This document shows, one piece after another, positions 8,191-26,574 of a DNA stretch of 64,000 bases; positions within the stretch are counted from its first letter, which is position 1; every line of letters begins with the position of its first letter. The DNA comes from an uncultured Acidobacteriota bacterium (GTDB lineage: Bacteria; Acidobacteriota; Thermoanaerobaculia; Multivoradales; UBA5704), in NCBI GenBank assembly GCA_963770895.1, contig CAVYRF010000002.1, forward strand, positions 4,384,001-4,448,000, in the 5' to 3' direction. The notes under the pieces are model-generated. The model had not been told where the DNA came from. It made no database searches and worked only from the letters and a program-made list of their open reading frames with translations. Made by a program: the position numbers and the translations under genes.

Positions 8191-8648
8191 ACCCGGTCAG
8201 TGGCCTGTATCAGGTGAATCGCTAGTGGATGGCGCCGCAATCGGCGCCTGGAGCCAGGCGCGCCGACGCAGGCATAGCGGGGGACTAATGTCGAGGAGGC
8301 GGCCGGCGCTGATGCCATGCCGGCACTCCCGGCAGGTCGCAACGCCGCTCCGGGCGTTCGAGGGCAAGCCAGGCACTATCGATTCCTCTGATACAGGCCA
8401 CTAGGCTAGCCGCCGTCACCCGCTCGCCGGCGAGAACCCGACCCTGGCGGGTCGAAGACGCGCCCCTTCAACCAGGTTTCAAATGGGGCCGTTGCGGGGC
8501 GATGGCGAAGACGCGGTTGGCGTTGGCTGGAAGACGCCCTTTCAGGGGAGAGGGGTAAGATTGGCTGCAGCCTGCCATGGTGGTTTACCTGCCGCGGCAG
8601 GCACGCCGGTCCAGGCCCCTGCGCCGGCTTGATCTCCGGAGACCTCTG

Positions 8649-13100: not shown

Positions 13101-13772
13101 GCCCTCCCCTCCTGGTTCCACGGCGAGAATGTGGATGTGAAGCATCTCAGACAGCTGCGCAATGTCCTTGTCGGTAGGAGGGCTGCGCCGGTGCTTCTTG
13201 AAGCTTGCCGCAAGCAGATCGAGGAATACCGCCAGGACGTCTTCCTCGTCGCGGTTTTTCGCCACGTCGAAGCCCTGTCCGGGAGTCGCGGCGCGCAGGC
13301 GCTCGACGAGGATGGGAAGGTGGACGCGGATGGGCTCTGACGATTCAGGGCCGGCAACCAGGACCAGCCGATCTCGGGTCGGGTCGAGACGGCGCTCCCA
13401 GGGCCTGCCTTCGCGTCGTCCGGCACCCAGGGAGAGAAGCTGCCGGACACATTGGTCCAGTGCCGAGGCGAGCTCGGACTCGGGGCGGCTGCCAAGGTCG
13501 AGGCGGCGCTTGGCCTGCAGAAAGGCAAAGCCGCCCACGGAAGTCGCGACGCGCAGATCGTCTACCGGCTGGTCGGTCTCGCACCAGATCGTGTCCAGCC
13601 GTACATGGGCCGGCAGGCCCCAAGGCGACGCAGCCTGGTCGCCCGCCAGGATGCAGGTGGAGATCCAGGCGGCAACGCGGGCCTGGTAGCCGATGCCTCC
13701 CGCGGTGGCCGCTCCACCCCCTGGCCTGGCGGTGGGACCTTTCGCGTCACCTGCCGGTTCGTGGGCGTCCAT
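10161..13772 (-). CDS. STAND/NACHT-type NTPase with N-terminal PD-(D/E)xK-like nuclease and C-terminal HEAT-like repeats (Avs-like defence protein)
   Basis: N-terminal GIGYQ...ETDQPVDD...FLQAKR. Walker A GSAGYGKT, Walker B FILIDALNE, KVIVSCR, NPLLLSLFC, WHD-like FVYEAVAEY, and a helical repeat C-terminus (LTDPVTRVHRYALR, HASPAVRKAA). Confidence 0.8.
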   Translation of the reverse strand: MDAHEPAGDAKGPTARPGGGAATAGGIGYQARVAAWISTCILAGDQAASPWGLPAHVRLDTIWCETDQPVDDLRVATSVGGFAFLQAKRRLDLGSRPESELASALDQCVRQLLSLGAGRREGRPWERRLDPTRDRLVLVAGPESSEPIRVHLPILVERLRAATPGQGFDVAKNRDEEDVLAVFLDLLAASFKKHRRSPPTDKDIAQLSEMLHIHILAVEPGGEGESLALDRLRHQLRQPDLSDAAWALLVASALRWAQRRGGAHRAGLADLLFNAGLPLRGMTLEQPALSTTRLLAICGRALPDQIRRLGRGNYAAELFVPRRARRRIDDFLDADTRFRVQAASLLDRLRAIAVAHDLGTSAIDSLLAQDAGPRLVEEALDPLRRTFRFAAVEKALALAERAIQEPLDSAFARQLVEILTLLETLPAFNQARLKQAAQYLNAVRRSNLSGGRGEMDGFWSLLPSAPSGRDWSGRELLANSLLQELETAATDCAARCLAIVGSAGYGKTSLLCSLADELGRETPTVLLSGEMTISSEYDVETHIQRLLERELGEDCRDWLRRVANGLNRTWGWLFILIDALNENTDPVRMARAVDQLVNHCRWQRVKVIVSCRDVHWPVFASKLQPLLTGKAPLILDEFSPEEQRQAMALYFEKFQLRCQLGPDAAALLKNPLLLSLFCRSNQGRDLGIVADLRALDVFDRFMAGATAGIVLRAALAGSALVDDLLWRIGSEMWRRRRTALRHDEAGITPREQSDPLSVYNQLRSEGILAANSAEAGSAAAGSSAHRLHFVYEAVAEYMIARAWAHHLEETTSRDTTLGRLLEEAIEALPSFASTLGALLFLDRMQAQSGEVLSRVISLLARRDDAFLAAQQPVVVAVFENLVVEKASDEAVFTLARFEALADPISRDALAPVVLRLLQHRREHPLVRSLALRLIEIDPGLLGAVPSGERSEDTENGTAQGKRGPGEDLSSPPHSGSESVPLALPPARHHYPREARLTALSLLVTTDLDAPLEIFLQGARKLGSVDLRSALEAFRALDRATDGTLFAVIDHQIVAGALEYRIYCAWLLRERYGRRPADFLVRLLTDPVTRVHRYALRLFRERAIEPELIEAVLAKLDGEPSLAAWHRTNLLTLLGSPERFRPPSLGAAETLRIRDVLSRAATHASPAVRKAAYQVALQYVSSTEILDLRRRIAADPSLSVRGLA

Positions 13773-14026
13773 GGCCGCAGCTCTGCGGCATTCTATTCAT
13801 GAACGATGACGGCGCCCAGCAGCGTCCGCCGCGACGCTGCGCGTTCTCTGCACCACCTTGCCGAACGCGGTCGCCAGCTAGCCCAGGTCGGTCCGGATGT
13901 CCGCGAGATCATTGTGCACGCCATTCTCGATCGGGCAACCGCGGTCACAGCCGAATAGCCGCGCCCTACCTGAGTCGGCAACAGGGCGAATAACCTCGTG
14001 GCCGCGGCGGTCGACAGTCTGCCTGG

Positions 14027-15898
14027 TCAGGTGCAGGGAAGCGCTGCTGTGTCCTGGACCGGTTGCGCCGTGGTCTGGTCGGGATTGGAGTAGGTCTTGA
14101 AGTTGCCGGTCTGGGTGTCCGTCACCGTGACCGAGAAGCCGACGTTGGTCAGTGCCGCGAAGAATACCCAGTAGTGCCCTCCCAGGCTGCACCCGTTGAG
14201 GACCTTGATCAGCATCTCGGGGTTGTTCGCGGCGAAGAACCAGAAGATGCCTCCTTGATCGATGCCGAGAGACGCGAGCGCAATGTCAGCCGCAGGGCCG
14301 TGAAGCCCTCCATCCTCGGCGGTGTTGACCGTGGTGTGGACCGCGAAGCGCTTGTCGCCCGGCTTGTCGTCGATGCAGAGAACGCTGCTGCTGGCGACGC
14401 ACGGCGCGCCGCCGCCGGCGGGTGAGAGCCATTGCTCGATCGACGAGAAGGTCTGCGAGAACGCCCCGTCGGCGATCAGGTTCCCCGGATCGCAGTTGTT
14501 GGAGCTTGCCGTGGCAAGACATTGTCCGTGCAGCTGGCCCACGACCTGGCCGCTTGCCAGCGCCACGGGTGAGCCCGAGCTGCCTCCCGCCGTATCGCCT
14601 TGACCGGCGACCACCTTCGAGTAGATGTGGTTCGCGCCGAAACACTCCGAGCTCGACTCGGAGAGGAAATGGGTCACCGAATATCCCTGCGGGAGGGGTA
14701 TCCCCGCCGGTGCCGGGTAGGACACGCGGTACAGCGATTCGCCGCTGGTCAGCGCGCTGCTGGAAGCGTCCCAGCCGAGGAAGACGCTGGTGCCGGGGAC
14801 CGAACCGAGGAGGCGAATGAAGGTGAAGTCGGAGGTCGCGGAAGTCGCCAGGAGGGTGGCCCCGGACGTGCGCGGGAAATTGTTTTCAGACGGTGCGACC
14901 GCGTTGCAGGATGGATCTGCGTACTGCCAGAAAGCCTCCAGGCTCGAGGCCGACGCTTGGGTGGAGAAACAGTGATGCGCGGTCAGCAGATAGGGGGTGC
15001 CGTCTTGTTTCGTGTTGTTCAGGAGGCCGCCGCTGCACAGAAAGCCCGCGGAGTTCTCGATGAACTGCAGCTGCGCCACGCCGTAGTGCAGGGACGTCAG
15101 AACGCTGCTGCTCGGCGCGCACGTGGCGTCGAGCAGACAGCTCGACGAGTCCGCCGCCGGGGTCGGCTGGCCGCCCTGCGGCATGGCTGACATCGACTGC
15201 GTCGCCGGCGGCAGGAGCGGCGAAGCGGCCGGCGCGGAGCCGGGAACGACCGCCGGCGAGCTCAGTTGAAAGAGCTCCATGACCTCGTTCACGGTGAAGC
15301 TTGTCGCTCCGCCGCTGGGCGCCTGCACCTCCACCATGAGGTCCGGGCCCGCCACGCTCGGGGTCCAGAGATCGCCGGCTGGCGCACGCAGCTCGAGGCC
15401 GAATTCGCGCGGCTTCTGGCCCACTCCCCATACCCACATCCGCGCGCCCGGTGCGAGCTGCACCGCCAGCATGTGCAGCCTGAGCCGGTCGGCGTCGTCC
15501 ACGTGGACGCGCGTGCCCCAGGCGACCATACCGTCTCCGGCGTCGGCGATAAGTCCGCCCGAGTTGCCGACGGGGTCCGCATGGCCCACCGCGGCAGCAT
15601 CGAGCTTCACCTCGGCCGGGAGGGGCAGGGGGCGGGCGAAACCGTTCTGGGGCGGCTCGCGCCGCGCTGCATTGCGGGCCTGCATGGCTTCGAGGCTGTC
15701 GAGAGCCGCAATGTTCGCTGCCCGCAGCGAATGGATGGGTGCAATGGCCAGCGCGGTCGCCAATCGCAACGGCGGCGGCTCCGTCGCGAGCGGGGGCGTT
15801 GCGCCCGGCTGGGGGAAAAGAGGGCGCAGGCTCTGAGCAACGAGCGTCGAGGCACAAGCGAAGAAGACGGAGCACAACACCAGAGGCTTACATCTCAT
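14027..15898 (-). CDS. Secreted trypsin-like (lysyl endopeptidase-type S1) serine protease with C-terminal accessory domain
   Basis: Signal peptide from ATG 15898, CSGGLLNN, catalytic triad TAHHC / SDFTFI / GGSSGS. Confidence 0.88.
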   Translation of the reverse strand: MRCKPLVLCSVFFACASTLVAQSLRPLFPQPGATPPLATEPPPLRLATALAIAPIHSLRAANIAALDSLEAMQARNAARREPPQNGFARPLPLPAEVKLDAAAVGHADPVGNSGGLIADAGDGMVAWGTRVHVDDADRLRLHMLAVQLAPGARMWVWGVGQKPREFGLELRAPAGDLWTPSVAGPDLMVEVQAPSGGATSFTVNEVMELFQLSSPAVVPGSAPAASPLLPPATQSMSAMPQGGQPTPAADSSSCLLDATCAPSSSVLTSLHYGVAQLQFIENSAGFLCSGGLLNNTKQDGTPYLLTAHHCFSTQASASSLEAFWQYADPSCNAVAPSENNFPRTSGATLLATSATSDFTFIRLLGSVPGTSVFLGWDASSSALTSGESLYRVSYPAPAGIPLPQGYSVTHFLSESSSECFGANHIYSKVVAGQGDTAGGSSGSPVALASGQVVGQLHGQCLATASSNNCDPGNLIADGAFSQTFSSIEQWLSPAGGGAPCVASSSVLCIDDKPGDKRFAVHTTVNTAEDGGLHGPAADIALASLGIDQGGIFWFFAANNPEMLIKVLNGCSLGGHYWVFFAALTNVGFSVTVTDTQTGNFKTYSNPDQTTAQPVQDTAALPCT

Positions 15899-16084
15899 AG
15901 ACTTCTCCTTGTTCACGGGCACGCGGTGCTCGACGTGCTGCGACCCCACGCCCAACAATCCACTTTCGTTGATAGGCCCAGGATATCACGCGCGCGCCCC
16001 GCCGGAAGCGCTGCGGCGCCGCTCCGCGCGGTATCGACATATGTCTATTTTTTGTAATAAACGATGCCGCGTTACCATCAAGGA

Positions 16085-18577
16085 ATGAACAAAATCCTAT
16101 CTATCGCTTCGATCGCCACATTTTCCATCGCCATCCACCTGGCCGGAGCTGGCTCCGCCGATGCGTCGCCCGTCAACACGAGCGCGGCCTACTCGGAGGT
16201 GGCCGCCCGCGCGGAGGCCGTCAACGCCAATTTCTACGTTTACAAGGATGCCGATTCGGGCTTCAATCACGGCTTCCCATCGGGGTACTTCGCCGATCCG
16301 CTTTCGCTCGTCTACGTCATCCAGGTGAACAGCGCCTGCATCGACGACCCCACCGCTCCCTCCGGTTGCAGCACCGACCCGAACGCACTGGACCGGGTGC
16401 GGGGCAACGTGCTGCAGGTCGTCCTGCCGCCGATGGCGAGCGATCAATTCTCGGGCGTGAATATCGAGGAGCCCCAGAACTGGGGAGCGCAACCGCGTGG
16501 CATCGGCTATGACCTTCGCGGCAGCAGCCAGGTGGTCTTCGACGCCCGCTCCCCCGACGAGGCGCAGGTCCAGTTCGGCGTGGGAGGCTGTGTGACACCT
16601 TTCTTCACTCTCTCGAAGAACTGGCAAACCTTCCCGATCAGCCTGAGCTCGCTGCAGCCGCCCCAGGGGAGCCAGACCGCCTGTCCTCCGGACCTCAGCA
16701 ATGTGCATCTCCTCTTCACCGTCGCCACTTCCGGTGCGCAGGCACCCGCTGGCGCCACGGTCCTGCTCGACAACATCCGCTTCGAGCCGGTTCCCACCAA
16801 GCAGCTCCAGAGCGTCGGCCTGCCGCTCGCAACCACCACCTTCGGCGTCGTCCCGCTGCAGGTGCCCGCCGCCGGCCGGGTCTCGATCCCGCCCGACCAG
16901 GCCAACCGCAACATCGCGACCGCCTACGAGTCGGCCATGGCGAACTTCGCCTTCCTCGCCCGCGGCACGCCGGAGGACCTGGTGGATGCGCAGCTCATCG
17001 CCAACGCCTTCCACGCGGCACTGCACCACGACACCCTGGGAGACCCCTTGCCCCTGGCGGTGGATGGGTCGGCGGGGGTCCACGATGGCTACTCGGCCGG
17101 TGACCTCCTGCTGCTCAACAGGCAGGGCAGCGGCGGCGGCGACGCAGGCCAGGTTCGGCTCGCCGGCTTCAGCGCCGACTCCTGCTCCAACAGCCACTTC
17201 TGCATCGAGCTCGACGGCGCCACCGGCGGCAACGACGCCTTCGCGGTCATGGCTCTCCTCGCGGCCTACAGGAAGTTTGGAGAGCTCGCCTACCTGGAGG
17301 ACGCCCACACCATCGCCGACTGGATCGCCGCCAACCTGGCCGACACCAGCGGCACCGGGTTCGGTGGCTACTACGTGGGCTATCCAGACAACGGCAAGCC
17401 GTACTCGAAGCCCCTGAACATGGGGAAGTCGACCGAGAACAACGCCGACATCTTCTCCGCCTTTTCGCAGCTCGCCGGCGTCGAGCGGGAGCTCGGCAAA
17501 GCCGCCCAAGCGGCGCTGTGGACCGCGCGCGCGAACAGCGCGGGCGACTACGTCATGGCGATGTTCGACAATGGCACCGGCTGCTTTTTCGGTGGCTCGG
17601 TGCCGTCCGGCACGCCGGCGAGCGCCGGCATTTCCCCCAACGGCAAGAAGCGCGGCGACGAGGTGATCAATACGTTCCTTTTTCTCGACTCGAACAGCTT
17701 CACCGCCCTCGAGCTCGCCCAGAGCAGCCGATACCGCAACCAGATCGATTGGCGCCAGCCCATGCGCTGCGTCCTCGGCCGGTTCGGGCGCAGGGTGCAG
17801 GCGGCGAGCTTGACCTACGACGGCTTCAGCATCGACACCACGACCGCCGCCGGTCCGACCGGCGTCGCCTGGGAGTTCACCTCACAGGCCGTGGTGATGA
17901 TGAAATTCATCGACGCCCTGTACCGCGAATCGACCTTCGCACCGGTCGCCGCCGCCTACCTGAGACAGATCGCGCAGGCCCAGGCGCACGCTCCCTTCGG
18001 CGACGGCAGCGGCCTCGTGGCGAGCACGATGCAAGGCGGCAACACCCTCGCCCCGCTCGATCAGTGCCTCACCACACCGTTCCAATGCATCCCAGAGAGG
18101 GTGGGGCTGGCGGCAACGACCTGGGCCCTCTTCGCCGCGCTGGGCATCAATCCCCTCGCCCCGCCCACCGCCGCGCCGCCCGGACCGCCGGGTCCTCAAG
18201 CGTGCCAGACCACGACGCCGCCGGCGATCTCATTTTCCTCCGTTCCGCCGCTCGGCTCCTCCAACGAGGTGCAGGGCAAGGTCGCCTTCGCGGCCACTCC
18301 TTGCATCGCCAGTGACTTCCGCGTCGCACTCTTCATCCAGGTCCCGGGGTTCACCAGCTCGTCCTATATCTGCAAGCCCTTCGAAGATGCGCCGCTCACT
18401 CCGATCGGCAACGACGGCTCGTGGGCAGCAACCTATGTGACCGGCGGCAACGACGTGAACGCCACTGGGATCTGGGCCTTCCTGGTGAATCCAGGCTTCA
18501 CCTGGACCTGTTTCACCAACACCCTGCCCACGGTAGACGGCAAAGCGGTCTTCGCCGTCGCCGTAGCCACCCGGTGA
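16085..18577 (+). CDS. Secreted multidomain protein, probable carbohydrate-active (CBM-like plus six-hairpin-glycosidase-like)
   Basis: Signal peptide, beta-sandwich-like N-region (LSKNWQTFPISL, LLDNIRFE), helical catalytic-like region (KSTENNAD, VAWEFTSQ), Pro-rich linker and a C-terminal domain. Start is 16064 or 16085. Confidence 0.65.
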   Translation: MNKILSIASIATFSIAIHLAGAGSADASPVNTSAAYSEVAARAEAVNANFYVYKDADSGFNHGFPSGYFADPLSLVYVIQVNSACIDDPTAPSGCSTDPNALDRVRGNVLQVVLPPMASDQFSGVNIEEPQNWGAQPRGIGYDLRGSSQVVFDARSPDEAQVQFGVGGCVTPFFTLSKNWQTFPISLSSLQPPQGSQTACPPDLSNVHLLFTVATSGAQAPAGATVLLDNIRFEPVPTKQLQSVGLPLATTTFGVVPLQVPAAGRVSIPPDQANRNIATAYESAMANFAFLARGTPEDLVDAQLIANAFHAALHHDTLGDPLPLAVDGSAGVHDGYSAGDLLLLNRQGSGGGDAGQVRLAGFSADSCSNSHFCIELDGATGGNDAFAVMALLAAYRKFGELAYLEDAHTIADWIAANLADTSGTGFGGYYVGYPDNGKPYSKPLNMGKSTENNADIFSAFSQLAGVERELGKAAQAALWTARANSAGDYVMAMFDNGTGCFFGGSVPSGTPASAGISPNGKKRGDEVINTFLFLDSNSFTALELAQSSRYRNQIDWRQPMRCVLGRFGRRVQAASLTYDGFSIDTTTAAGPTGVAWEFTSQAVVMMKFIDALYRESTFAPVAAAYLRQIAQAQAHAPFGDGSGLVASTMQGGNTLAPLDQCLTTPFQCIPERVGLAATTWALFAALGINPLAPPTAAPPGPPGPQACQTTTPPAISFSSVPPLGSSNEVQGKVAFAATPCIASDFRVALFIQVPGFTSSSYICKPFEDAPLTPIGNDGSWAATYVTGGNDVNATGIWAFLVNPGFTWTCFTNTLPTVDGKAVFAVAVATR

Positions 18578-18936
18578 CGGCCTCGACCGGACGGCCCGCG
18601 GCACTGGGGCGAGCTGGCGGTGGGCGGACGGGGAGACTGGTGGGCGGCGGGTCGGGGGTCGGCGGAGATGGGGGTGGGAGGGTGTTGCGCCGGCGCTGGT
18701 GGCGCGGGCGGGTTTTTGGCGGCCGGGCTGGCGGGAGGTTAGGTCGAGGAGCAAGCCGGCGGGGTTTCAGTTCGCAGGGCTGGCTGTTGCGCGAGCGCGC
18801 ACCGCGGGCTCAGGGTTTGGCGAGTGCGCGGTGGAGTAGGCAATGATCCCGCTGGGGCAGGCGGATGAATTTGGCGCTGGGGCCGGGGTGAGAAGCGCAC
18901 GGGGGCCGGGGTGCGCGCGAGGCCGGGCCGCCGTCA

Positions 18937-19008
18937 CTTGACAACTGCAGCCGCTACCTGCTGGCGCTGCACCTGGCGCCGAGCTTCGATGACGCCGCGC
19001 TGATTTGA
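18937..19008 (+). pseudogene. Tiny DDE/rve transposase-like remnant
   Basis: Reads LDNCSRYLLALHLAPSFDDAALI*, resembling the D-x-x-SR motif of IS3/IS481 integrase cores. Confidence 0.3.
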
Positions 19009-19048
19009 TCGCCGCCGCGTTCGATCATATGGCTCCGTGCCTGCTCGC

Positions 19049-19522
19049 TCATTCAGCGTCAACAAGGGGGATGAGGAACGTGTAGAGCGCCAACAACATG
19101 GCGCCGTATGCCGGCTGATACCAGCTGATGTTGTGCGCCGTGAACGGCTCACCAAGAGAAATAGCCCAAACAGCGAAGGCACCAGTGCCGATCACTACCT
19201 GTCTCCACTTCGTAATTTTAGCGATTCTGATCTGCCATGGGATTGTAATCACCCACACAACCACAAACACAATCCAGTAGATGGTCTCGATCGGCGCCGG
19301 AGGTTGTAGCAGTGCCACGAATCCCTTTAGCGCCAAATACATCGCGACCACATCTGCTGGGATGTATTTGAGGAGCCGATCCTTGTATTTGTCTTCTATC
19401 GTCCCAGAAGCTGCGAAATCAGGCACCCGCAGTCCTGGCGGCGGAACCGTTTGTAGATTTAATTGCGTCGCTTGCGCACGAGCCTGTACCGCGTCTTTCC
19501 TCGTGACAACTTCTCGCCCCAT
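19049..19522 (-). CDS. Small 4-TM membrane protein (157 aa) with a soluble N-terminal extension
   Basis: GGAGG RBS before ATG 19522. DKYKDRLLKYIPADVVAMY precedes four hydrophobic segments. Confidence 0.85.
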   Translation of the reverse strand: MGREVVTRKDAVQARAQATQLNLQTVPPPGLRVPDFAASGTIEDKYKDRLLKYIPADVVAMYLALKGFVALLQPPAPIETIYWIVFVVVWVITIPWQIRIAKITKWRQVVIGTGAFAVWAISLGEPFTAHNISWYQPAYGAMLLALYTFLIPLVDAE

Positions 19523-19899
19523 GGCGTACCTCCGGTTAGTAGAAGTGGTCGCTGTGCGGCACTCAGCCGGCCAGAGAACCGCTGACATCGATCGACAGTC
19601 AGGCCACCTTGTCAGGGTGACATAGTGCCTCAACTACGAAATAATGAGAGAGCTCATCAACACAGTACTTCCGGTTGCCCCCTGAGCACAAGCCTATGCG
19701 CCAACTGCTATGCATCGACTATTGCTGGCAGGTTTGGATGACAAGTCGGCCAGCCTTACTACGCCCGCCGTCACTGAGAGGCGGTAAACAATGGGGCGTC
19801 GGCCTTGCACTCTTGAGATGGATGGCGGCCATTCAAATGGGCATCGGAAGTCGCACAATCCTGTAATACCCAAAGCAATGTTACACTATACTACGATTT

Positions 19900-21366
19900 A
19901 TGGCTCGATACGTCTTCGCGGTGCGCCGATCGGCTTGGACCGAACTTCACGGAGGCGGCAGGCACGCGCGCGTCTGGTCGGACCTGCTTCCCGAGATTCG
20001 CGGAGGCGACGTGCTGTGCGAGCTCTCCGATAGGGATGGACGCCCTCGACGCCGCGTGATTGTTGAGGCCACCGCGGGAGACGTCGACGCGATTCGCGGC
20101 CGGCTGCCCGTAGACATCGTTGTCGAGCCTGAAGTTCTCCACACCTCGCAGATTCTGGGGCTCGGAGGCGGGAGACACAACGTTACGGTCGTTGGTTCGG
20201 GCGGGCATCCCATTCGCGGAGCGGTAGTTCGCATGACCACTCGAAACTCCTGGGAGCCTGCGGTCGCGCGCACAAACGCAGCTGGACATGCCGAATTGGA
20301 AGTTCGAGGAAAGGGCGTCGCTAGGCTGGAGGTATCTCCAATTCCCGGGCATTGGTCCATCGGCTTGCAGCGCTCGGCTCAACAGCGGGACATAGACCTT
20401 ACGGCGGCTTCATTGCCACCAATGCCGAACGACGGCCTGGGATGGTGGCACCAGGCGGTCGGCGGTGGGTCCATTGGTAGCGAGGCAGCCGGCGGAATTC
20501 GGATCGGAATCATCGATTCCGGCTGTGGACCCAACCCGGCTCTTTCCCACGCCCGAACGCTGGGGAGCTTCGTGGATGGGCGACTGCCGACCGCGGAGGG
20601 CCTCGACGCAAACGAGCATGGGACGCATGTCTGTGGGATCGTCGGAGCACGGCCAACCGGAGGAGCTGGTTTCGTTGGCTTGGCGCAGGCTGCTGAGATG
20701 GTGGTAGCTCGGGTGCAACAGCCCGGTCAGCTTGTCAGCGACGCGGACATGGCGAACGCGGTAGATGCGATGGCAGACGAGCAGGTCGATCTCATAAACA
20801 TGAGCCTTGGGGCTAAGCGCGAATCAGTGCAACTCATCGACAGCATCATCGACGCGTGGACTCGAGGCACGGTATGCTTTGCAGCGGCCGGCAACACCGG
20901 CGACGATGTGCTATGGCCAGGCCGCCACGAAAGGGTTGTGGCGGTGACAGCTGTGGGGCGGCGCGGGGTAGCGCCGCCGGGAACCCTCAGCGCGAGCCGG
21001 CTGCTGAGGTGTCTTGGCGAAGATGTGAACAACAACTTGGTGTTCCCCGATTTTTGTTGTCGCGGGCTCGGAGTAACCTGCTGTGCGCCGGGGGTCGCGA
21101 TTATCTCTACGATTCCGGTCGAGGGCGCCGGTCAGATTCCTCCCCTGGCTGGCTGGGCGGATATGGATGGTACGTCGATGGCCAGCCCGGTGGCCCTTAG
21201 CGTGCTCGCCGCGGTCCTCGGCAAAGACAAGAAGTTTCTCCGAATGTCGCGTGACGAAGATCGGGCCCAATATGCATGGGACCAGCTTGAGATGCACTGC
21301 GTGCCCACTACGCTCGACCAGGATTTCCAGGGGAACGGAATCCCTATGGTCAACTTGCCATATTAG
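19900..21366 (+). CDS. Cytoplasmic S8 subtilase with N-terminal prodomain-like and beta-sandwich domains
   Basis: IGIIDSG (Asp), HGTHVCG (His), AAAGN (oxyanion Asn) and DGTSMASP (Ser). No signal peptide. TATACT lies 7 nt before the ATG (possibly leaderless). Confidence 0.92.
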   Translation: MARYVFAVRRSAWTELHGGGRHARVWSDLLPEIRGGDVLCELSDRDGRPRRRVIVEATAGDVDAIRGRLPVDIVVEPEVLHTSQILGLGGGRHNVTVVGSGGHPIRGAVVRMTTRNSWEPAVARTNAAGHAELEVRGKGVARLEVSPIPGHWSIGLQRSAQQRDIDLTAASLPPMPNDGLGWWHQAVGGGSIGSEAAGGIRIGIIDSGCGPNPALSHARTLGSFVDGRLPTAEGLDANEHGTHVCGIVGARPTGGAGFVGLAQAAEMVVARVQQPGQLVSDADMANAVDAMADEQVDLINMSLGAKRESVQLIDSIIDAWTRGTVCFAAAGNTGDDVLWPGRHERVVAVTAVGRRGVAPPGTLSASRLLRCLGEDVNNNLVFPDFCCRGLGVTCCAPGVAIISTIPVEGAGQIPPLAGWADMDGTSMASPVALSVLAAVLGKDKKFLRMSRDEDRAQYAWDQLEMHCVPTTLDQDFQGNGIPMVNLPY

Positions 21367-21403
21367 GCCACTTTTGGTATCCCACCAGGGCCCGGCGCGC
21401 TGT

Positions 21404-21432
21404 TTGCATGCCGCCAAGTCGTTGGGTATGAT
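21404..21432 (+). promoter_or_regulatory. Sigma70-type leaderless promoter for the 78-aa gene
   Basis: TTGCAT (21404-21409), 17 bp spacer, TATGAT (21427-21432), 7 nt, then ATG 21440. Confidence 0.6.
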
Positions 21433-21439
21433 AATGGGC

Positions 21440-21676
21440 ATGGAGCGATATGTCATCGCGGTTAGGCGAGACCACCGGCAGACCGTCAAGTTGTCCGACG
21501 CTCTGAATCGGTTGTCGGGAGTCCACGGTTACAACGTCGTTGGCACTGTTCAGGGTGTGCGGACGGTGATTCAGGCTGATGATGACGCTGCCATCCGCAT
21601 CAAACAATTGCTAAGAGACTGCTGCTACGTGGAACGAGAGGTTCTGCATACTCCGCAAGTTAACTCCTGTCGATAG
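21440..21676 (+). CDS. Stand-alone paralog of the subtilase N-terminal (prodomain/I9-like) domain, 78 aa
   Basis: MERYVIAVRR...RTVIQADDDAAIRIKQLLRDCCYVEREVLHTPQ aligns with subtilase residues 1-84 MARYVFAVRR...RVIVEATAGDVDAIRGRLPVDIVVEPEVLHTSQ. Confidence 0.85.
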   Translation: MERYVIAVRRDHRQTVKLSDALNRLSGVHGYNVVGTVQGVRTVIQADDDAAIRIKQLLRDCCYVEREVLHTPQVNSCR

Positions 21677-21870
21677 AATTCTCCCTATTCCAGGGCGACC
21701 GCAGCCAGATCCTCATGCCATCGTCGAGGCCAGATGGTCGGCGTTCATACTGCAGCCCTCGCCCATCTGCACCGGTTGCTGCCGGTCGAGAGTGCCGCGC
21801 AGGGTGACCTCCGGCGCTTGCCTGTTGGGCCGCTCACGATGCGGGCAGCCTCGTTGCCGCTGACGAAGAC

Positions 21871-22112
21871 TGCGTATTCCGACGAAAATCAGCCACGGTT
21901 CCGGAGCAAATCCTGCCAGGGTTCCGGGCGGAATCCAGCCACCATTCCGACGCCAGGAAGCCAAAGACGGGAATGACGTAAAGCCTGTGGAATCTGCTGG
22001 AAAGCCTCCACCTACCCCCGCCCGCCTTCCCACAGATTCAACAGGCTCGACGACGACGGCAGGGTGGCTGGTTGAACGTCGGAATGGGTGGCCGGCTTCG
22101 TCGGAATACGCA
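21871..22112. mobile_element. Non-autonomous IS21-type MITE (242 bp) with 8-bp TSD
   Basis: 16-bp perfect terminal IR TGCGTATTCCGACGAA / TTCGTCGGAATACGCA. Flanking direct repeat ACGAAGAC (21863-21870 and 22113-22120). Internal ~22-23-bp TTCCG...GCCA repeats at both ends. Confidence 0.9.
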
Positions 22113-22342
22113 ACGAAGACCACGTCCGTCGGGCGGCGATCGATTTGTCAGGCGCGTAGCGGCGGAGCGGTTCTACCAGCTCGGCCCTCGCTCGGTGCTC
22201 AGTAGTGCCGGACCTGTCGAGCTGTTCGGCACAGCCGGCCGCTCGCGCGAGCCGGAGAAGGCGGGGGTGGTGTCACCGATCGCTCTAAATTCCCCCCGTG
22301 CGATCAGCTAATTGTCCCCCCTCCTGCGACCGACGAGGGAGC

Positions 22343-23662
22343 ATGATGGACAACGAGTGCGAAGTAGGGATGCTTGCCGTGGCGCCTGAAGGCGCCGCGG
22401 AGGCGCCAGTTGTGATTGAGGAAAACGTCTGGGGTGCGGTTCGGGCTCTTCGCGAGCGTGGATCGAGCAAGAAGGCGATTGCGCGGGAGCTTGGACTGGA
22501 CATCAAGACGGTCCGCAAGTGGCTGGGGCGGGAGTGGCGGGCGCAGCAGAGGCGCAAGCGAGGCGGGATTCTGGAGCCCTGGGGAGAGTTTCTCCGGGGC
22601 CGAGCTCCCGAGGTGGGCTTCAACGGGTCGGTGTTGTACCGGGAGCTGGCGTCTTTGGGCTACGCAGGGTCGTACCCGACCGTGGTGCGTCATCTGCGGC
22701 CGCTGCGGGAGCAGCAGCGGCAAGACGAGCTTTCGACGTTGCGGTTCGAGACGGACCCCGGCAAGCAGGCGCAGGTGGATTGGGGGTCTTGCTGGGTCTG
22801 GCTCGGCGCGGAGCGGTTGCGGGTTCACCTGTTCGTCATGGTTCTGGGCTACAGCCGTCGGATCTTCGCCTGGGGCTACCGCGATGAAGGGCTCAGCGCT
22901 CTGCTCGATGGCCATGCTCGCGCCTTCGCCCACTTTGGTGGCCGCACAGCGACGATCTTGTATGACAACCCGCGGACCATCGTGCAGGAGAAGGACGAGG
23001 CGTCGGGGTGGGTGAAATGGAATGCGACATTCAAGGATCGGATGGATTTCTACGGTGTCGAGATCCGGCTTTGCCGGTACTACCGAGCCCGCACCAAGGG
23101 CAAAGTGGAGAGCGGGGTCAAGTACGTCAAGCGCAACGCCCTGGCAGGGCGGCGTTTTAGCGACCTCGAAGCGCTCAATGCGGGACTTGGGGAGTGGTCG
23201 GCGGCGGTGGCGGACCAGCGCATCCACGGCACGACGCACGAGCGGCCAGCAGAGCGGTTTGCTCGCGCTGAGGCGGCGGAGCTGATTGCCGTCGACGCCC
23301 GGCCGCCGGCGCCTCGCGAGCGGATGACGACGCGAGTGGTGCCGCGTGACGGACTGGTCGCCGTCGAAGCCAACCGCTACCCAGTGCCGTTGAGCTGGGT
23401 CGGCCTTGAGGTCCGCGTCCATCTGCTGGCCGAGGAGGTACTACTCGGACGCGACGGCGAGGATCTCATCCGCCATCTACGTCTTGTCGGCAAGCATCGA
23501 GTGGCTCGCTGGAATGGGCCGCCGCGCAGTGCGAGTCCACTGGCAGCTGCGGCGGCGGGAGGCCCCCCGCAGTTGGACCCGGCCTACCTTGGCCTCGCCG
23601 GTGAGGTGCAGGTGCGTCCCTTGGGCTTGTACGAGGCGATCGCTGCGGGGATGGGCCGATGA
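22343..23662 (+). CDS. istA: IS21 transposase IstA
   Basis: HTH (IARELGLDIKTVRKWL), RFETDPGKQAQVDWG, YDNP, KGKVESGVKYVK and RIHGTT. Confidence 0.96.
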   Translation: MMDNECEVGMLAVAPEGAAEAPVVIEENVWGAVRALRERGSSKKAIARELGLDIKTVRKWLGREWRAQQRRKRGGILEPWGEFLRGRAPEVGFNGSVLYRELASLGYAGSYPTVVRHLRPLREQQRQDELSTLRFETDPGKQAQVDWGSCWVWLGAERLRVHLFVMVLGYSRRIFAWGYRDEGLSALLDGHARAFAHFGGRTATILYDNPRTIVQEKDEASGWVKWNATFKDRMDFYGVEIRLCRYYRARTKGKVESGVKYVKRNALAGRRFSDLEALNAGLGEWSAAVADQRIHGTTHERPAERFARAEAAELIAVDARPPAPRERMTTRVVPRDGLVAVEANRYPVPLSWVGLEVRVHLLAEEVLLGRDGEDLIRHLRLVGKHRVARWNGPPRSASPLAAAAAGGPPQLDPAYLGLAGEVQVRPLGLYEAIAAGMGR

Positions 23663-24483
23663 GCGGCTTGGCGATCGAACAGGTCCAGGAACAGATGCGG
23701 CAGCTCAAGCTGGTGCGCACGGCTGCCGCACTGCCCCTGTTGGTGCAGGATGCGAGCAAGCGCGAGTCGAGTTACACCGATTTCCTCGAGGACCTGCTGG
23801 GCCGGGAGCTATCGGCCAAGCAGGAGCGCCATACGGCGATGAAAACGACGATGGCTCGCTTCCCGTTCCACAAGAGTCTTGAGAGCTTCGACTTCAAGTC
23901 TCAGCCTTCGATCGAACCGAAGGTGATCAAGGAACTCGCCACTGGCCGCTTCATCGCCGACGCCGACAATGTGCTGCTGCTCGGCCCTCCTGGGGTCGGC
24001 AAGACTCACTTGGCGGTGGGCCTCGGATTGCGCGCCTGCGCTTTGGGCTACCGGACCGCTTTCATCACCGCCGCCGGTCTGATCGCAAGCTTGACGCGAG
24101 CGCACAACGACAACCGCCTGGAAGAGAAGCTCAAGCTGCTCGTGCAACCCAAGCTATTGATTTTGGACGAGATCGGGTATTTGCCCATGGAGAGGCTGGG
24201 CGCCAACCTGTTCTTCCAACTGGTTTCCCGGCGCTATGAGCGAGGCTCCATGCTGATCACCTCCAACCAGAGCCTCGCCGGCTGGGGCCAGGTCTTCGGC
24301 GACCAGGTGATCGCCACGGCCATCCTCGACCGGCTCCTCCACCATTCGACAATCCTCAACATCAAGGGGGAGAGCTACCGTCTCAAGGAGAAGCGGAAGG
24401 CCGGTCTGCTGACCCGCAGCGAACCCTTCACTGCGGCGGCCGCGGCCGCCGCCTCCAGCGGCGGGGAAGACTCTCCGGCGTGA
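23659..24483 (+). CDS. istB: IS21 helper ATPase IstB
   Basis: GPPGVGKT, LLILDEIGY, ITSN and AILDRLLHH. ATGA overlap with istA. Confidence 0.97.
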   Translation: MSGLAIEQVQEQMRQLKLVRTAAALPLLVQDASKRESSYTDFLEDLLGRELSAKQERHTAMKTTMARFPFHKSLESFDFKSQPSIEPKVIKELATGRFIADADNVLLLGPPGVGKTHLAVGLGLRACALGYRTAFITAAGLIASLTRAHNDNRLEEKLKLLVQPKLLILDEIGYLPMERLGANLFFQLVSRRYERGSMLITSNQSLAGWGQVFGDQVIATAILDRLLHHSTILNIKGESYRLKEKRKAGLLTRSEPFTAAAAAAASSGGEDSPA

Positions 24484-25154
24484 CGAGCTGTGGCCTATGG
24501 ATCCTGCCGGAGCTGTGGAAAACGCCCAAAAGCGGCGTTTCCCACAGCTCCTTGGACGGCGCAAACAGCGCGCCGCCCACAGGCCCCACAGGCCCCACAG
24601 GCCCGACGACGACGGGCACAACCAACCAAGGAGGGGGGGACAATTAACTGATCGCGGGGGGGGAATTTAGGGTGATTCTTGACAGGTGGCTGCGGTGTGA
24701 CTTTCCGGGAGGTAGGAAGTTGGGAAATCCTGACACGGCTGGGCGCGCCCAAGCAGCGAGCCGCCGCGAACCGGGGTCGCTCCGTACCGGGATGCCCGCG
24801 AGAGCATGCGGCGCGAGGGTACTGCCGGATGCACCTCCTCCGGGCGTATCGGCATGGCGAGCCTGGGCCGGCGGCGCCGCTCCGCAAGAGATGTGGCTGA
24901 GAGGGGTTCGAGAAATGGGGCCGGGCGGCAGGGGGAGAAGCTGGTCACGCTTGACGGTCAGGTAGATCCCCCCCGCGGCCCGCACCTGCATTGTGGCTGC
25001 GGAGCGGGCGGGCTGGATCCATTGCGCAGCGATGCCTTGCTCGAAGGTCGCTCTGCGCGGCCAATTCTCTTGCAGGGATCTTGCAGGCGCGACCTCTGGC
25101 CCTGCGCCGCGCCCGGAACTGTTTGCCTAATCGACTGATTTTGTTGGGTTTAAT

Positions 25155-25231
25155 TGGTCGGGACGCCGGGATTTGAACCCGGGACCCCCTGAACCCCATT
25201 CAGGTACGCTACCAGACTGCGCCACGTCCCG
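25155..25231 (-). tRNA. tRNA-Pro(GGG)
   Basis: Reverse complement CGGGACGTGGCGCAGTCTGGTAGCGTACCTGAATGGGGTTCAGGGGGTCCCGGGTTCAAATCCCGGCGTCCCGACCA folds as a cloverleaf with anticodon GGG and encoded CCA. Sits in the usual ihfA-merR-tRNA-Pro order. Confidence 0.97.
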
Positions 25232-25242
25232 ACCGGACTGCT

Positions 25243-26574
25243 CTACTGCGGGGTCTTCGAATCGAGGAGGGCAAGAATCTCGTGGGCTGACTGGAGAGCC
25301 TTGTGTATCCCCTTGCGGAGGGTTTCTATCTGCTTGGCGGCTTCGGTGTCAAGGTTGGCGGGGGTTGAGGCGGTTGCGGCTGGGGCGATGTGGGGGGCGC
25401 TGGGCGTTGCTGCGGCTGCGCCGGTTGCGGTGGCGGGTGACTCTGCGCCTGGACGTTTGGCGGCTTGGGCTGGCAGGGAGAGGGTCAGGGCGCCTTGCGC
25501 GGGGGATTGCGATCCGGGCTGTGCGGGGCTGATGGAGGCGACGCCGGCGGGGCTGGTGGAGGCGCTTGCTGGGCGGTTTCCGATCGACGGCTCGCCGGAG
25601 AGGATTGCGGGTGCGGGTGACGCTTTGGCGTTGACGACGGCGGGAGCGGCGGCGGCATCAGGAAAACTGCTTGAGGCGGGAGTGGCCGCGGTGAAGGCGG
25701 CGGTTCCGGCAGGCGCGGCGGCCGGTTGGGGTGTGGCTGCCGCGTTCGGTGCGGTGCCGTTGCCCTGGCCTGCCGGTTTTGTGGCGGATGGGGCGGTGGT
25801 CGCAGGCTGGCCTGATGAGGGCTTGGCGACGGGCGCGCCGTTGCCGGACGGGACGGCTGGGCTGCTGGCCTTGGCGGCGGCCTCGATGGTCGGGGGTTGG
25901 CCGGATGGCCTGGCCGTGGCCGCGCCGCTGCCGGGCATGGCGGGTGGGCTGTCGGGCTTGGTGATGGCTACGGCACCTGCGGGCCGGGTCGCGGCGGCCG
26001 GGCCGTCGTCGGGGTCCGTGGTGGCCGCGGCGGCATCAGGCGCATGGGTGTCGACCGCGGCGTCGGCCGGACGGCCTGCCGCGTCGGTGGCGGTGGCTCG
26101 GCTGGCGGCGGCCGTGGCGTTGGACGACGCTCGGCGGGCGGCAGCGGCGGCAACCGCGGCGGCGTTGGCGGCGGGCGCCGGCGTGATGGCTGGGGCCGGG
26201 CCGGGTGCTGCTTGGGCGGCGCTGGTGCCGGGATCGGCCTGGTCTTCAGCCGGATCGGCGGTGGCGAGGGGCGCGGCGGTGTTGGCGGTGGCGGCGCCGG
26301 GGTCGCCCAGGGTGCCGGTGGCGAGCTCGGTTTCCAGCTTCTTTTTGGCTCCGGCGATGGTGTAGCACTCGTCGTAGAGGAGCTGTTTGATGCGGCGGAT
26401 GATCTCCAGCTCTTTTTCGCTGTAGACGCGCTGGCCGGAGCGGCTTTTGCTGGGGCTCAGGGCTGGGAATTCGGTTTCCCAGAAGCGCAGGACGTAGGGC
26501 TGGATGCCGAGGGCTTTGCAGGCCTCGCCGATCTTGTAGTAGAGGCGCCTCTGGACGCGGGCCTTCGCCGCCAT
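25243..26574 (-). CDS. MerR-family transcriptional regulator with a very long Ala/Pro/Thr-rich insertion
   Basis: YYKIGEAC...[24 protein letters not shown]...[16 protein letters not shown], then ~330 aa of low complexity and a short C-terminal helix. Confidence 0.88.

What the first reader, a model, noticed from the sequence alone, without database searches (positions are those of the whole stretch)
19049..21676. Three-gene cassette: cytoplasmic subtilase, a free-standing copy of its own prodomain, and a divergent 4-TM protein (candidate protease-gated defence or death system)
Seen in sequence: a signal-less S8 protease (19900-21366) with an intact D/H/N/S catalytic set. It is followed by a 78-aa gene (21440-21676) homologous to the protease's first ~84 residues (MxRYVxAVRR at the start; V-x-x-A...D...I...L...VE.EVLHT.Q at the end). 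A small 4-TM protein with a ~45-aa soluble N-terminal arm is transcribed divergently. The block looks lower in GC than the host and lies among IS/MITE sequences near a tRNA integration site. Established: subtilase prodomains (I9-type) are tight inhibitors, and protease-activated membrane effectors (e.g. bacterial gasdermins) occur in defence islands. Inference: the free prodomain acts in trans as an inhibitor or antitoxin. Its depletion or displacement, for example during phage infection, would release the protease to cleave the 4-TM protein into a pore or depolarising effector. I know of no described system with this architecture.
Basis: partly seen in the sequence, partly recalled or inferred. 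Interest (0 to 1): 0.85.

Follow-up and report, generated by a model that had tools for sequence, protein, structure and literature searches.

The report
Protease, spare prodomain, membrane partner gene
A cytoplasmic subtilisin-type protease sits beside a separate small copy of its own prodomain, probably its off-switch, and beside a small membrane protein from a large unnamed family that is usually found next to proteases, which suggests a protease-triggered membrane-damaging device.

Summary

**Protease and small gene.** The S8 protease (19900-21366) has an N-terminal beta-alpha-beta-beta-alpha-beta domain, a beta-sandwich and an intact D206/H240/N332/S426 set. The 78-aa gene (21440-21676) is a true homolog of that N-domain (hhalign 97.4%, E 1e-11). 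A small homolog lies directly downstream of the protease in 36 of 45 related loci across phyla. It is the only recurrent neighbour, so protease plus free prodomain copy is the core unit. A complex model puts the small protein's tail (E-V-L-H70) in the active-site cleft (score 0.88; best control 0.00). This pass may partly reflect solved pro-subtilisin complexes.

**Membrane protein.** The 157-aa 4-TM protein is rarely linked to this protease family. Outside the window it is seen in one Spirosoma locus, and probably on one metagenome contig. Its own family has no Pfam model and 2,496 cluster representatives. It sits directly beside a peptidase gene (S8, trypsin-EAD, or zincin plus caspase) in 23 of 31 well-flanked groups, including vWA-MoxR/VMAP conflict operons.

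**Reading.** A latent protease is held by a trans prodomain, with an optional protease-controlled membrane effector. No step has been shown biochemically. I rate it a new variant of known kinds.

The parts
19049..19522 (-). 157-aa membrane protein: cytoplasmic N-arm (about residues 1-45; helix 8-24, then a low-confidence linker 31-41), conserved DxYKDRLLKYIPAD motif, four hydrophobic helices. Candidate protease-controlled membrane effector.
   Evidence: Homologs are about 157 aa and start MGRE. No Pfam, NCBIfam or PADLOC match. AF2 pLDDT 69.8, helices 46-70, 78-99, 106-123, 137-155. Hydropathy and charge distribution. The family is next to peptidases.
19523..19899 (.). 377-bp divergent intergenic region between the TM gene and the protease gene
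   Evidence: Coordinates. One sigma-70-like match at 19617-19645 (+), which is a consensus match only.
19900..20145 (+). Protease N-domain (residues 1-82), prodomain-like beta-alpha-beta-beta-alpha-beta, ending in the conserved VEPE(I/V)LH motif
   Evidence: Family alignment. AF2 secondary structure E2-8, H10-16, H21-33, E37-42, E52-57, H59-66, E73-77. Pro-subtilisin entries align over 490-530 columns.
20170..20415 (+). Beta-sandwich middle domain (residues about 91-172)
   Evidence: AF2 strands 91-172. Weak Pfam hits to CarboxypepD_reg and Big_1, both below cut-off.
20494..21366 (+). S8 catalytic domain (residues 199-488) with D206, H240, N332, S426
   Evidence: Pfam PF00082 E 1e-25. Invariant columns. 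Foldseek subtilisins, E 4e-21, TM 0.88 of target.
21440..21676 (+). 78-aa free-standing paralog of the protease N-domain (alternative starts 21428/21434). Candidate trans-acting inhibitor.
   Evidence: homology; conserved position; modelled complex; 171 relatives of about 71 aa, none with a Pfam domain.
22271..24684 (+). IS21-family insertion sequence (IstA 22298-23662, IstB 23659-24483) with 51-nt terminal inverted repeats. Context, not part of the module.
   Evidence: Pfam rve/Mu-transpos_C_2 and IstB_IS21. Inverted repeat I1.
25155..25231 (-). tRNA-Pro (GGG). Context only.
   Evidence: ARAGORN.

Best explanation
The core is a two-gene latency module. A signal-less S8 protease is made with its own prodomain-like N-domain, and a second, free-standing copy of that domain is encoded just downstream.

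Inferred sequence of events:
1. The cis domain folds and blocks the enzyme, and is cut at the conserved VEPE(I/V)LH junction.
2. The free copy then rebinds the mature enzyme, with its own E-V-L-H70 tail lying through the S4-S1 pockets and across the catalytic Ser426. This keeps a dangerous cytoplasmic protease off.
3. If the small protein is lost (not resupplied, displaced or degraded), the protease is released.

In this window the module has acquired a third part. This is a 157-aa four-helix membrane protein whose family is a habitual neighbour of proteases of four catalytic classes, including effector proteases of vWA-MoxR/VMAP conflict systems. Most likely the freed protease cuts its cytoplasmic N-arm (disordered linker around residues 25-45) and converts it into a membrane-damaging form. 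That would give a protease-gated growth-arrest or cell-death (abortive-infection-like) device carried on accessory DNA.

Shown here: homology, conserved gene order, modelled binding, and context.
Inferred: autoprocessing, inhibition, trigger, cleavage of the TM protein, membrane damage, and a defence role.
For: **Homology.** The small protein family aligns to the protease N-domain family with hhalign probability 97.4%, E 1e-11.

**Conserved pairing.**
- A small homolog lies directly downstream in 28 of 34 distinct loci, window included.
- It is also downstream in 9 of 12 further loci from genomes of the same order.
- Among 45 loci, the only recurrent neighbour families are the protease and the small protein.
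- The small proteins are about 71 aa and end 2-6 residues after the VEPEIxH-like motif.

**Fold.** The N-domain is beta-alpha-beta-beta-alpha-beta. Pro-Tk-subtilisin and pro-subtilisin E entries align over 490-530 columns.

**Complex model.**
- Catalytic part (87-488) with the small protein scores 0.88, 0.88 and 0.90; best of 3 controls 0.00.
- In the tool's calibration the mark was reached by 58 of 80 solved complexes and 2 of 110 mismatched pairs.
- Runs agree in at least 85% of contacts, and the partner's pLDDT is at least 87.
- Small-protein residues 67-76 touch 278-282, 302-305, D206/207, H240, N332 and 422-427.

**TM family.**
- 80 metagenome loci were collected.
- A divergent but catalytically intact S8 gene lies directly downstream in 21 loci by the map, or 22 counting L109, whose contig-end fragment matches S8 at E 9e-8.
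- EAD1- or EAD8-trypsin lies directly upstream in 24 loci, often followed by VMAP, MoxR AAA and vWA-WD40.
- Zincin plus caspase C14 is adjacent in 3 loci.
- By groups at 90% identity with at least 1.2 kb on both sides, 22 of 31 were scored by script and 23 of 31 with L114 added by hand.
- 46 of 135 genes adjacent to the TM gene are peptidases, against 13 of 269 non-adjacent genes in the same loci.

**The three-gene set elsewhere.**
- Spirosoma MAG locus L022 has TM, protease and small gene on one strand. Its near-syntenic sister L018 lacks only the TM gene.
- Homologs of all three (74%, about 81% and 81% identical) are each recorded on a contig of 42,061 bases from the same source.

**Accessory nature.**
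- The protease family was not found in 9 of 9 other genomes of the genus, and in 16 of 300 of the order.
- GC is low and an IS21 is adjacent.
- A STAND NTPase gene and a trypsin-like gene lie upstream.
Against: - The TM gene is absent from 44 of 45 other loci of this protease family. The protease therefore must have other substrates, and the TM link here could be recent or incidental.
- Here the TM gene is divergent, not co-directional as in most TM-peptidase pairs.
- In the four other genomes of the phylum that hold a TM-family member (5 of 401 searched, window's genome included; one of the four, G083, is unpublished), no S8 gene lies within about 4-6 kb.
- 8 of 31 well-flanked TM groups have no adjacent peptidase.
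- Neither the N-domain nor the small protein matches Pfam Inhibitor_I9 at E up to 1.
- The complex pass may come from likeness to solved pro-subtilisin complexes, and my own alignments were used.
- No cleavage motif shared by the TM arm and the prodomain junction was found. The arm is not homologous to the prodomain (hhalign probability 0.2-0.3%).
- Some TM-family members carry an N-terminal PG_binding_1 domain. If that domain is periplasmic, it would argue against a cytoplasmic N-terminus in those members.
- The peptidase profiles used for counting were built from the neighbours themselves, and the loci are not independent.
- There is no experimental evidence for any step.
Confidence: 0.45

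Rival explanations
1. A two-gene housekeeping or regulatory protease with its latency factor, with the TM gene an unrelated neighbour. Protease plus free prodomain copy is a self-contained unit for controlled cytoplasmic proteolysis, and the TM gene merely landed beside it in a mosaic accessory region.
For: The TM gene is absent from 44 of 45 other family loci. The only recurrent neighbour is the small gene. Here the TM gene is divergent and separated by 377 bp. The region is mosaic, with an IS21 and low GC.
Against: The TM family is rare (5 of 401 genomes of the phylum) yet lies next to this protease family in two distant lineages, and probably on the 42,061-base contig. The family is adjacent to a peptidase in 23 of 31 well-flanked groups. 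A chance meeting of a habitual protease neighbour with a protease is therefore unlikely.
Confidence: 0.25
2. The TM protein is linked to the protease but is not a killing effector. It could be a membrane anchor or activator that recruits the protease, a sensor cleaved to signal, or an immunity or regulatory partner.
For: Adjacency shows a functional link, not its direction. The protein is small and has no recognisable pore-forming fold (best Foldseek E 0.95; best VIA Z 6.8, in the noise range for helical bundles). The N-terminal motif MGRE(V/I)(V/I)TKxD is conserved in S8- and caspase-linked members, which could be a docking site.
Against: In VMAP operons the TM gene sits between the EAD1-trypsin effector protease and the EAD1-VMAP core. 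[quoted passage not shown] The TM protein carries no EAD adaptor.
Confidence: 0.15
3. The small protein is mainly a trans-acting folding chaperone (foldase) for the protease rather than a standing inhibitor.
For: Subtilisin prodomains act as both chaperone and inhibitor (abstract of PMC10580911, seen in the listing). The closest relatives of this protease (9 proteins of 326-403 aa, 42-51% identical) lack the N-domain altogether and might depend on a separate prodomain protein.
Against: The window's protease keeps its own N-domain, so a second foldase seems redundant. The modelled tail lies through the active site as an inhibitor or substrate would. The two roles do not exclude each other.
Confidence: 0.12
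4. The small ORF is a precursor peptide or substrate processed by the S8 enzyme (as leader peptidases of the S8 family do), or a decaying duplicate.
For: The small ORF lies beside an S8 enzyme. The model threads residues 67-76 through the active site like a substrate.
Against: It is a folded-domain homolog of the protease's own N-domain. It is conserved at about 71 aa across phyla with no conserved Cys or core-peptide pattern. No modification enzymes recur nearby.
Confidence: 0.03

Closest known systems
Free-standing subtilisin-propeptide-like inhibitors (MEROPS I9 type): Pleurotus POIA1, yeast proteinase B inhibitor 2, Plasmodium SUB1 propeptide-like protein
   Same: A small stand-alone protein related to a subtilase prodomain that inhibits the mature enzyme. 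The POIA1-subtilisin complex 1v5i appears among the fold matches of the catalytic domain. The Plasmodium case is titled as a potent inhibitor of SUB1 (PMC6993865, title and abstract start seen in the listing).
   Different: Those are eukaryotic and act on secreted or compartmental enzymes. Here the pair is bacterial, signal-less, encoded as adjacent genes and spread across phyla. There is no sequence match to Pfam Inhibitor_I9. The names PBI2 and MEROPS I9 are recalled, not taken from a call.
Bacterial gasdermin-protease systems
   Same: A membrane-acting protein encoded next to a dedicated protease that activates it by cleavage. 43 of 50 bacterial gasdermins lie next to protease genes (passage of bioRxiv 10.1101/2021.06.07.447441), comparable to 23 of 31 for this TM family. 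The associated proteases include caspase-like ones, and in fungi subtilases.
   Different: The TM protein is a 157-aa all-helical integral membrane protein, not a soluble gasdermin fold. Any autoinhibitory piece would be N-terminal. Cleavage is not shown.
vWA-MoxR/VMAP ternary conflict systems with EAD-linked effector peptidases (Kaur et al. 2020, PMC7159879), and CARD-type systems in which gasdermin is replaced by other effectors (PMC10312443)
   Same: Relatives of the TM gene sit inside operons of EAD1-trypsin, EAD1-VMAP, MoxR AAA and vWA-WD40. [quoted passage not shown]
   Different: The window has no MoxR, vWA, VMAP or EAD gene next to the cassette. In the passages I searched in PMC7159879 and PMC8195603, no small multi-TM partner of the effector peptidases is described. 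Their supplementary tables could not be read.
Intracellular subtilisin proteases (ISPs) of Bacillus
   Same: Signal-less cytoplasmic subtilases kept latent by an N-terminal segment. The processed ISP entry 2xrm is among the fold matches.
   Different: ISPs use a short N-terminal extension, not a folded prodomain (recalled), and no separate inhibitor gene is known to me. Here there is a folded N-domain plus a free copy.
Protease-activated proenzyme effectors in defence (nuclease-trypsin pairs, PMC12799240), and type II toxin-antitoxin logic
   Same: An effector is kept inactive until a partner protease acts, and a small adjacent protein neutralises a harmful enzyme by direct binding.
   Different: Only the title and abstract start of PMC12799240 were seen. 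The effector here would be a membrane protein, and the 'antitoxin' is a paralog of the enzyme's own prodomain.

Membership tests
Peptidase S8 (subtilase) | Asp-His-Ser triad in that order with the oxyanion Asn; subtilisin fold | tested here: met
   PF00082 E 1e-25. D206, H240, N332 and S426 are invariant in 21 sequences. Foldseek subtilisins E 4e-21, target TM 0.88.
Inhibitor_I9 / subtilase propeptide (N-domain and small protein) | Sequence match to Pfam PF05922 | tested here: not met
   No Pfam family for P0002, and none covering residues 1-90 of P0001, at E up to 1.
Inhibitor_I9 / subtilase propeptide (N-domain and small protein) | Beta-alpha-beta-beta-alpha-beta fold packed on the catalytic domain | tested here: inconclusive
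   The secondary-structure order fits, and pro-subtilisin entries align over 490-530 columns but at rmsd 5.6-8.2.
Inhibitor_I9 / subtilase propeptide (N-domain and small protein) | C-terminal tail bound in the substrate cleft; inhibition of the cognate enzyme | tested here: inconclusive
   The model places residues 67-76 in the cleft, score 0.88 against best control 0.00. This is a model only, and inhibition cannot be tested with these tools.
Bacterial gasdermin system | Gasdermin-fold pore-forming protein | tested here: not met
   The TM protein is predicted all-helical with four hydrophobic helices. There is no Pfam match.
Bacterial gasdermin system | Effector gene adjacent to a protease gene | tested here: met
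   23 of 31 well-flanked TM-family groups. In the window the TM gene lies 377 bp from the protease gene.
Bacterial gasdermin system | Activation by site-specific cleavage that removes an inhibitory peptide | not testable with these tools
   Needs biochemistry.
vWA-MoxR / VMAP ternary system | MoxR AAA, vWA and VMAP genes together | tested here: not met
   None among the window's neighbours scanned. They are present around TM-family relatives such as L130.
IetAS-type defence (ATPase plus S8 protease; recalled) | Partner ATPase gene beside the S8 gene | tested here: not met
   No ATPase is adjacent to the protease in the window, and none recurs in 45 loci. The PADLOC 'subtilase' model matches the catalytic domain only (E 1.1e-17).
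Intracellular subtilisin protease (ISP) | No signal peptide; short N-terminal inhibitory extension instead of a folded prodomain (recalled) | tested here: not met
   The protease is signal-less but has a folded N-domain of about 82 residues.

The most novel reading that the evidence does not exclude
The 157-aa TM protein belongs to a large, unnamed family (2,496 cluster representatives) of protease-gated membrane death effectors. These would be helical functional counterparts of gasdermins that have been swapped between S8, trypsin-EAD/VMAP and zincin-caspase conflict systems. In this window such an effector is wired to a cytoplasmic subtilase whose safety catch is a free copy of its own prodomain. 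That gives a three-part 'inhibitor, protease, membrane executioner' abortive-infection device of a design not described so far.
Probability: 0.35. Interest if true: 0.85.

Novelty: new variant of a known kind. Interest (0 to 1): 0.7.

Why it matters
If the small protein is a dedicated trans inhibitor, this would be a widespread bacterial version of a control so far described for eukaryotic subtilases. It would also explain how bacteria can keep an active-site-competent subtilase in the cytoplasm.

If the TM family is a protease-activated membrane effector, it would give a missing effector for many predicted vWA-MoxR/EAD conflict operons. It would also be a second, structurally unrelated solution to the 'protease opens a membrane lesion' logic of gasdermins.

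Both ideas can be tested directly with three small genes.

Tried and rejected
- **First genome-contig scan.** The scan with the single protease found no relative. The alignment-based scan worked.
- **TM arm as a mimic of the prodomain's first strand.** Rejected: hhalign probability 0.2-0.3%.
- **Fold of the TM protein.** Foldseek against PDB gave no match at E up to 0.001 (best 0.95). VIA wide search gave a best Z of 6.8, within the range the tool gives for unrelated helical bundles. Nothing can be concluded from this.
- **ESM Atlas for the TM protein.** Only unnamed clusters were returned, scores 0.91-0.92.
- **NCBIfam and PADLOC.** Nothing for the TM or small protein.
- **tRNA-derived direct repeat or integrase as island borders.** None seen.
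- **Intrinsic terminators in 18800-22300.** 0 found.
- **Expression.** No RNA holder was listed. Only four soil-metagenome DNA runs from one study hold 0.06-0.26 of the words, and none was laid.
- **Long TM-family members.** Pfam scan of ten of them for protease fusions found none: two carry PG_binding_1, one GIY-YIG, one a sub-threshold Trep_Strep hit, and six nothing.
- **L169/L170.** These join the TM N-arm to an S8 C-terminal piece. I read them as deletion remnants, not designed fusions.
- **Earlier notes of this scan near this place or by the TM sequence.** Nothing.
Full report
**1. What is there**

The three ORFs exist as described.

*Protease (19900-21366, 488 aa).*
- Pfam Peptidase_S8 matches residues 199-451 at E 1e-25.
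- In an alignment of 21 family members, D206, H240, N332 and S426 are invariant.
- The N-terminus has no hydrophobic stretch, so no signal peptide is apparent.
- The start at 19900 is supported by the family consensus MARYVxANRR and by an 81%-identical 487-aa homolog that keeps it. One stored gene call begins 37 codons later.
- An AlphaFold2 model built on that alignment has pLDDT 81.1 and pTM 0.87. It shows three parts: residues 1-82 as beta-alpha-beta-beta-alpha-beta, residues about 91-172 as a beta-sandwich, and then the catalytic domain.
- Foldseek finds subtilisins (E 4e-21). Unprocessed pro-subtilisins (2e1p, 3whi_B, 2zwo_C) align over 490-530 columns, that is, prodomain included, though at high rmsd.

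*TM gene.*
- It is 19049-19522 (157 aa). All 57 homologs found are of this size class, and the closest start MGRE.
- It has four hydrophobic helices and a charge pattern that puts the N-arm of about 45 residues in the cytoplasm.

*Surroundings.*
- GC is low over 19-22 kb.
- An IS21 with 51-nt inverted ends lies at 22271-24684.
- tRNA-Pro is at 25155-25231.
- I found no MITE, integrase or att-like repeat.

**2. The small gene is a conserved free copy of the prodomain-like N-domain**

*Homology.* Pairwise similarity is modest (31% over 85 residues, E 0.007). Profile against profile it is clear: 97.4% probability, E 1e-11.

*Conserved position.*
- Among family loci from species-representative genomes, a small homolog lies directly downstream of the protease in 28 of 34 distinct loci, window included. 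It was not found in L012, L019, L021, L025, L027 and L030.
- It is also there in 9 of 12 further loci from genomes of the same order. One of the three misses runs off its contig.
- In L176 the small gene is on the opposite strand.
- The iterated profile was run only on ORFs just downstream of the protease, so its E-values are for a small set. The first-pass hits with P0002 alone were already in that position in 9 loci.

*The family.*
- The proteins are about 71 aa and end 2-6 residues after a VEPEIxH-like motif. The same motif ends the cis N-domain.
- 171 relatives were found in the large protein collection. The 120 listed are 70-82 aa with no Pfam domain.
- In 45 loci the only recurrent neighbour families are the protease and the small protein. 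This pair is the autonomous unit.

*Complex model.*
- It used the catalytic part (87-488) with the small protein, both with alignments. Scores were 0.88, 0.88 and 0.90, against 0.00 for the best of three controls.
- The tool's calibration for this mark is 58 of 80 solved complexes and 2 of 110 mismatched pairs. Contacts agree in at least 85% between runs, and the partner's pLDDT is at least 87.
- Residues 67-76 (E-V-L-H70-T-P-Q-V-N-S) run through the cleft. They touch 278-282, 302-305, D206/207, H240, N332 and 422-427 around Ser426.
- This is the binding mode of a prodomain tail or a substrate.
- Solved pro-subtilisin complexes exist, so the pass shows likeness rather than proof.

*Limits and earlier notes.*
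- Neither domain matches Pfam Inhibitor_I9.
I treat it as a lead that my own tests agree with.

**3. The TM protein: rarely with this protease family, nearly always with some protease**

*From the protease's side.*
- The TM gene is exceptional. A TM-family profile hits only the window and L022 among the 80 genome-contig loci, and none of the 15 order loci.
- L022 (a Spirosoma MAG) has TM, protease and small gene on one strand. Its near-syntenic relative L018 lacks just the TM gene.
- Homologs of all three window proteins are each recorded on a contig of 42,061 bases from the same source: TM 74% identical, protease cluster about 81%, small protein 81%. Adjacency there is inferred, not seen.

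*From the TM protein's side.*
- The family has no Pfam, NCBIfam or PADLOC model.
- It has 2,496 representatives at E up to 0.001, 1,282 at 1e-10 and 101 at 1e-30.
- In 80 metagenome loci the TM gene has the following neighbours:
  - A divergent S8 gene directly downstream in 21 loci by the map, or 22 counting L109, whose contig-end fragment matches S8 at E 9e-8. This S8 gene has an intact D/H/N/S set.
  - An EAD1- or EAD8-trypsin gene directly upstream in 24 loci, mostly followed by EAD1-VMAP, MoxR AAA and vWA-WD40 genes.
  - A zincin-like gene and a caspase C14 gene adjacent in three loci.
- After grouping the TM proteins at 90% identity there are 62 groups. A same-strand adjacent peptidase is present in 32 of them by script.
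- Of the 31 groups with at least 1.2 kb on both sides, 22 have one by script, and 23 with L114 added. The script missed the S8 gene in L114 because of an over-long ORF call.
- Gene by gene, 46 of 135 neighbours of the TM gene are peptidases, against 13 of 269 other genes in the same loci.

*Caveats.*
- The profiles were seeded from the neighbours themselves, loci are related, and many contigs are short.
- In the window's phylum the family was found in 5 of 401 genomes. The four others (one of them, G083, unpublished) have no S8 gene within the 4-6 kb read.
- S8- and caspase-linked members keep the conserved N-arm (MGRE..TKxD). Trypsin-linked ones are shorter at the N-terminus.
- No fold relative was found.

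**4. Mechanism proposed**

1. The protease is made as a zymogen. Its cis N-domain is expected to be cut at the VEPE(I/V)LH junction, by analogy with subtilisins.
2. The co-encoded free copy rebinds and blocks the mature enzyme. This is inferred from conserved pairing and from the model.
3. Loss of the small protein frees the enzyme. The trigger is unknown.
4. In this window the freed enzyme acts on the TM protein's cytoplasmic arm and turns it into a membrane-damaging form. This is inferred from the family's habitual pairing with effector proteases, including those of vWA-MoxR/VMAP conflict operons (Kaur et al. 2020, PMC7159879, passages read). It is also inferred by analogy with gasdermins, 43 of 50 of which lie next to proteases (passage).

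A defence or cell-death role fits the accessory nature of the cassette:
- The protease family was not found in 9 of 9 other genomes of the genus, and was found in 16 of 300 of the order.
- The surroundings include an IS21, a STAND NTPase with a weak Avs2-like match, and a trypsin-like gene.

None of this shows defence.

**5. Comparison with what is known, and novelty**

- Free prodomain-like inhibitors are described for eukaryotic subtilases. Examples are POIA1 (entry 1v5i) and the Plasmodium SUB1 propeptide-like protein (PMC6993865, listing).
- My searches listed no bacterial cytoplasmic case. This covers only the held library.
- I found no description of this TM family as a partner of effector peptidases in the passages searched in PMC7159879, PMC8195603 and PMC10312443 or in the listings. 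The supplementary tables of these papers could not be read and may list it.
- The pieces therefore belong to known kinds: a prodomain inhibitor, and a protease-gated membrane effector. The bacterial free prodomain pair, the helical effector family and their combination here are new variants.

**6. Verdict**

The trans-prodomain idea is well supported by comparison and modelling. The TM-effector idea is supported by context only. The three-gene unit is a rare elaboration of a common two-gene core.

Noticed in passing
window 10161-15958 (-): A 1203-aa STAND NTPase (nSTAND1/NACHT; weak NCBIfam Avs2 match, E 8.8e-15, far below cut-off) next to a 643-aa protein with a Trypsin_2 domain. It looks like a separate NLR-like protease conflict system 3 kb from the cassette. 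An Hsp70 gene lies at 8577-10142.
   Followed up: partly
L128-L144, L153, L167 (metagenome loci): Short (about 136-141 aa) members of the TM family sit between an EAD1-trypsin gene and EAD1-VMAP, MoxR AAA and vWA-WD40 genes. In L158, L159, L165 and L171 they follow an EAD8-trypsin gene and two unknown genes.
   Followed up: partly
P0006-P0014 (proteins): The closest relatives of the window's protease after the 81% homolog are nine proteins of 326-403 aa, 42-51% identical (one from a Gemmataceae MAG). They start at the beta-sandwich and lack the N-domain altogether. Their gene neighbourhoods could not be fetched.
   Followed up: partly
L169 5001-5636; L170 4657-5292: A 211-aa ORF joins the TM family's N-arm (profile positions 1-70) to a C-terminal piece of the S8 neighbour. 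It looks like a deletion across the gene pair.
   Followed up: no
P0392, P0438, P0445: Some TM-family members carry an N-terminal PG_binding_1 domain, and one has a GIY-YIG-like region. The PG-binding fusions raise a question about the topology of the N-terminus in those members.
   Followed up: no
L100 5470-8196: The TM gene is followed by two different S8 genes in a row (431 and 466 aa).
   Followed up: no
L176 2650-2874 (-): The small prodomain-like gene lies convergent to the protease gene, on the opposite strand, unlike in all other loci.
   Followed up: no
window 16064-18577 (+): An 837-aa protein with a signal-peptide-like N-terminus has no Pfam or NCBIfam match. It separates the cassette from the STAND/trypsin genes.
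   Followed up: no
window 27138-28442 (-): A group-1 glycosyltransferase also matches Pfam GT4-conflict (E 8.2e-8), just beyond the tRNA-Pro and a MerR-family gene (25243-26574).
   Followed up: no
L013, L036, L038, L014: Several family loci have the protease split over two frames or reduced (frameshifts or decay) while the small downstream gene is still intact.
   Followed up: no
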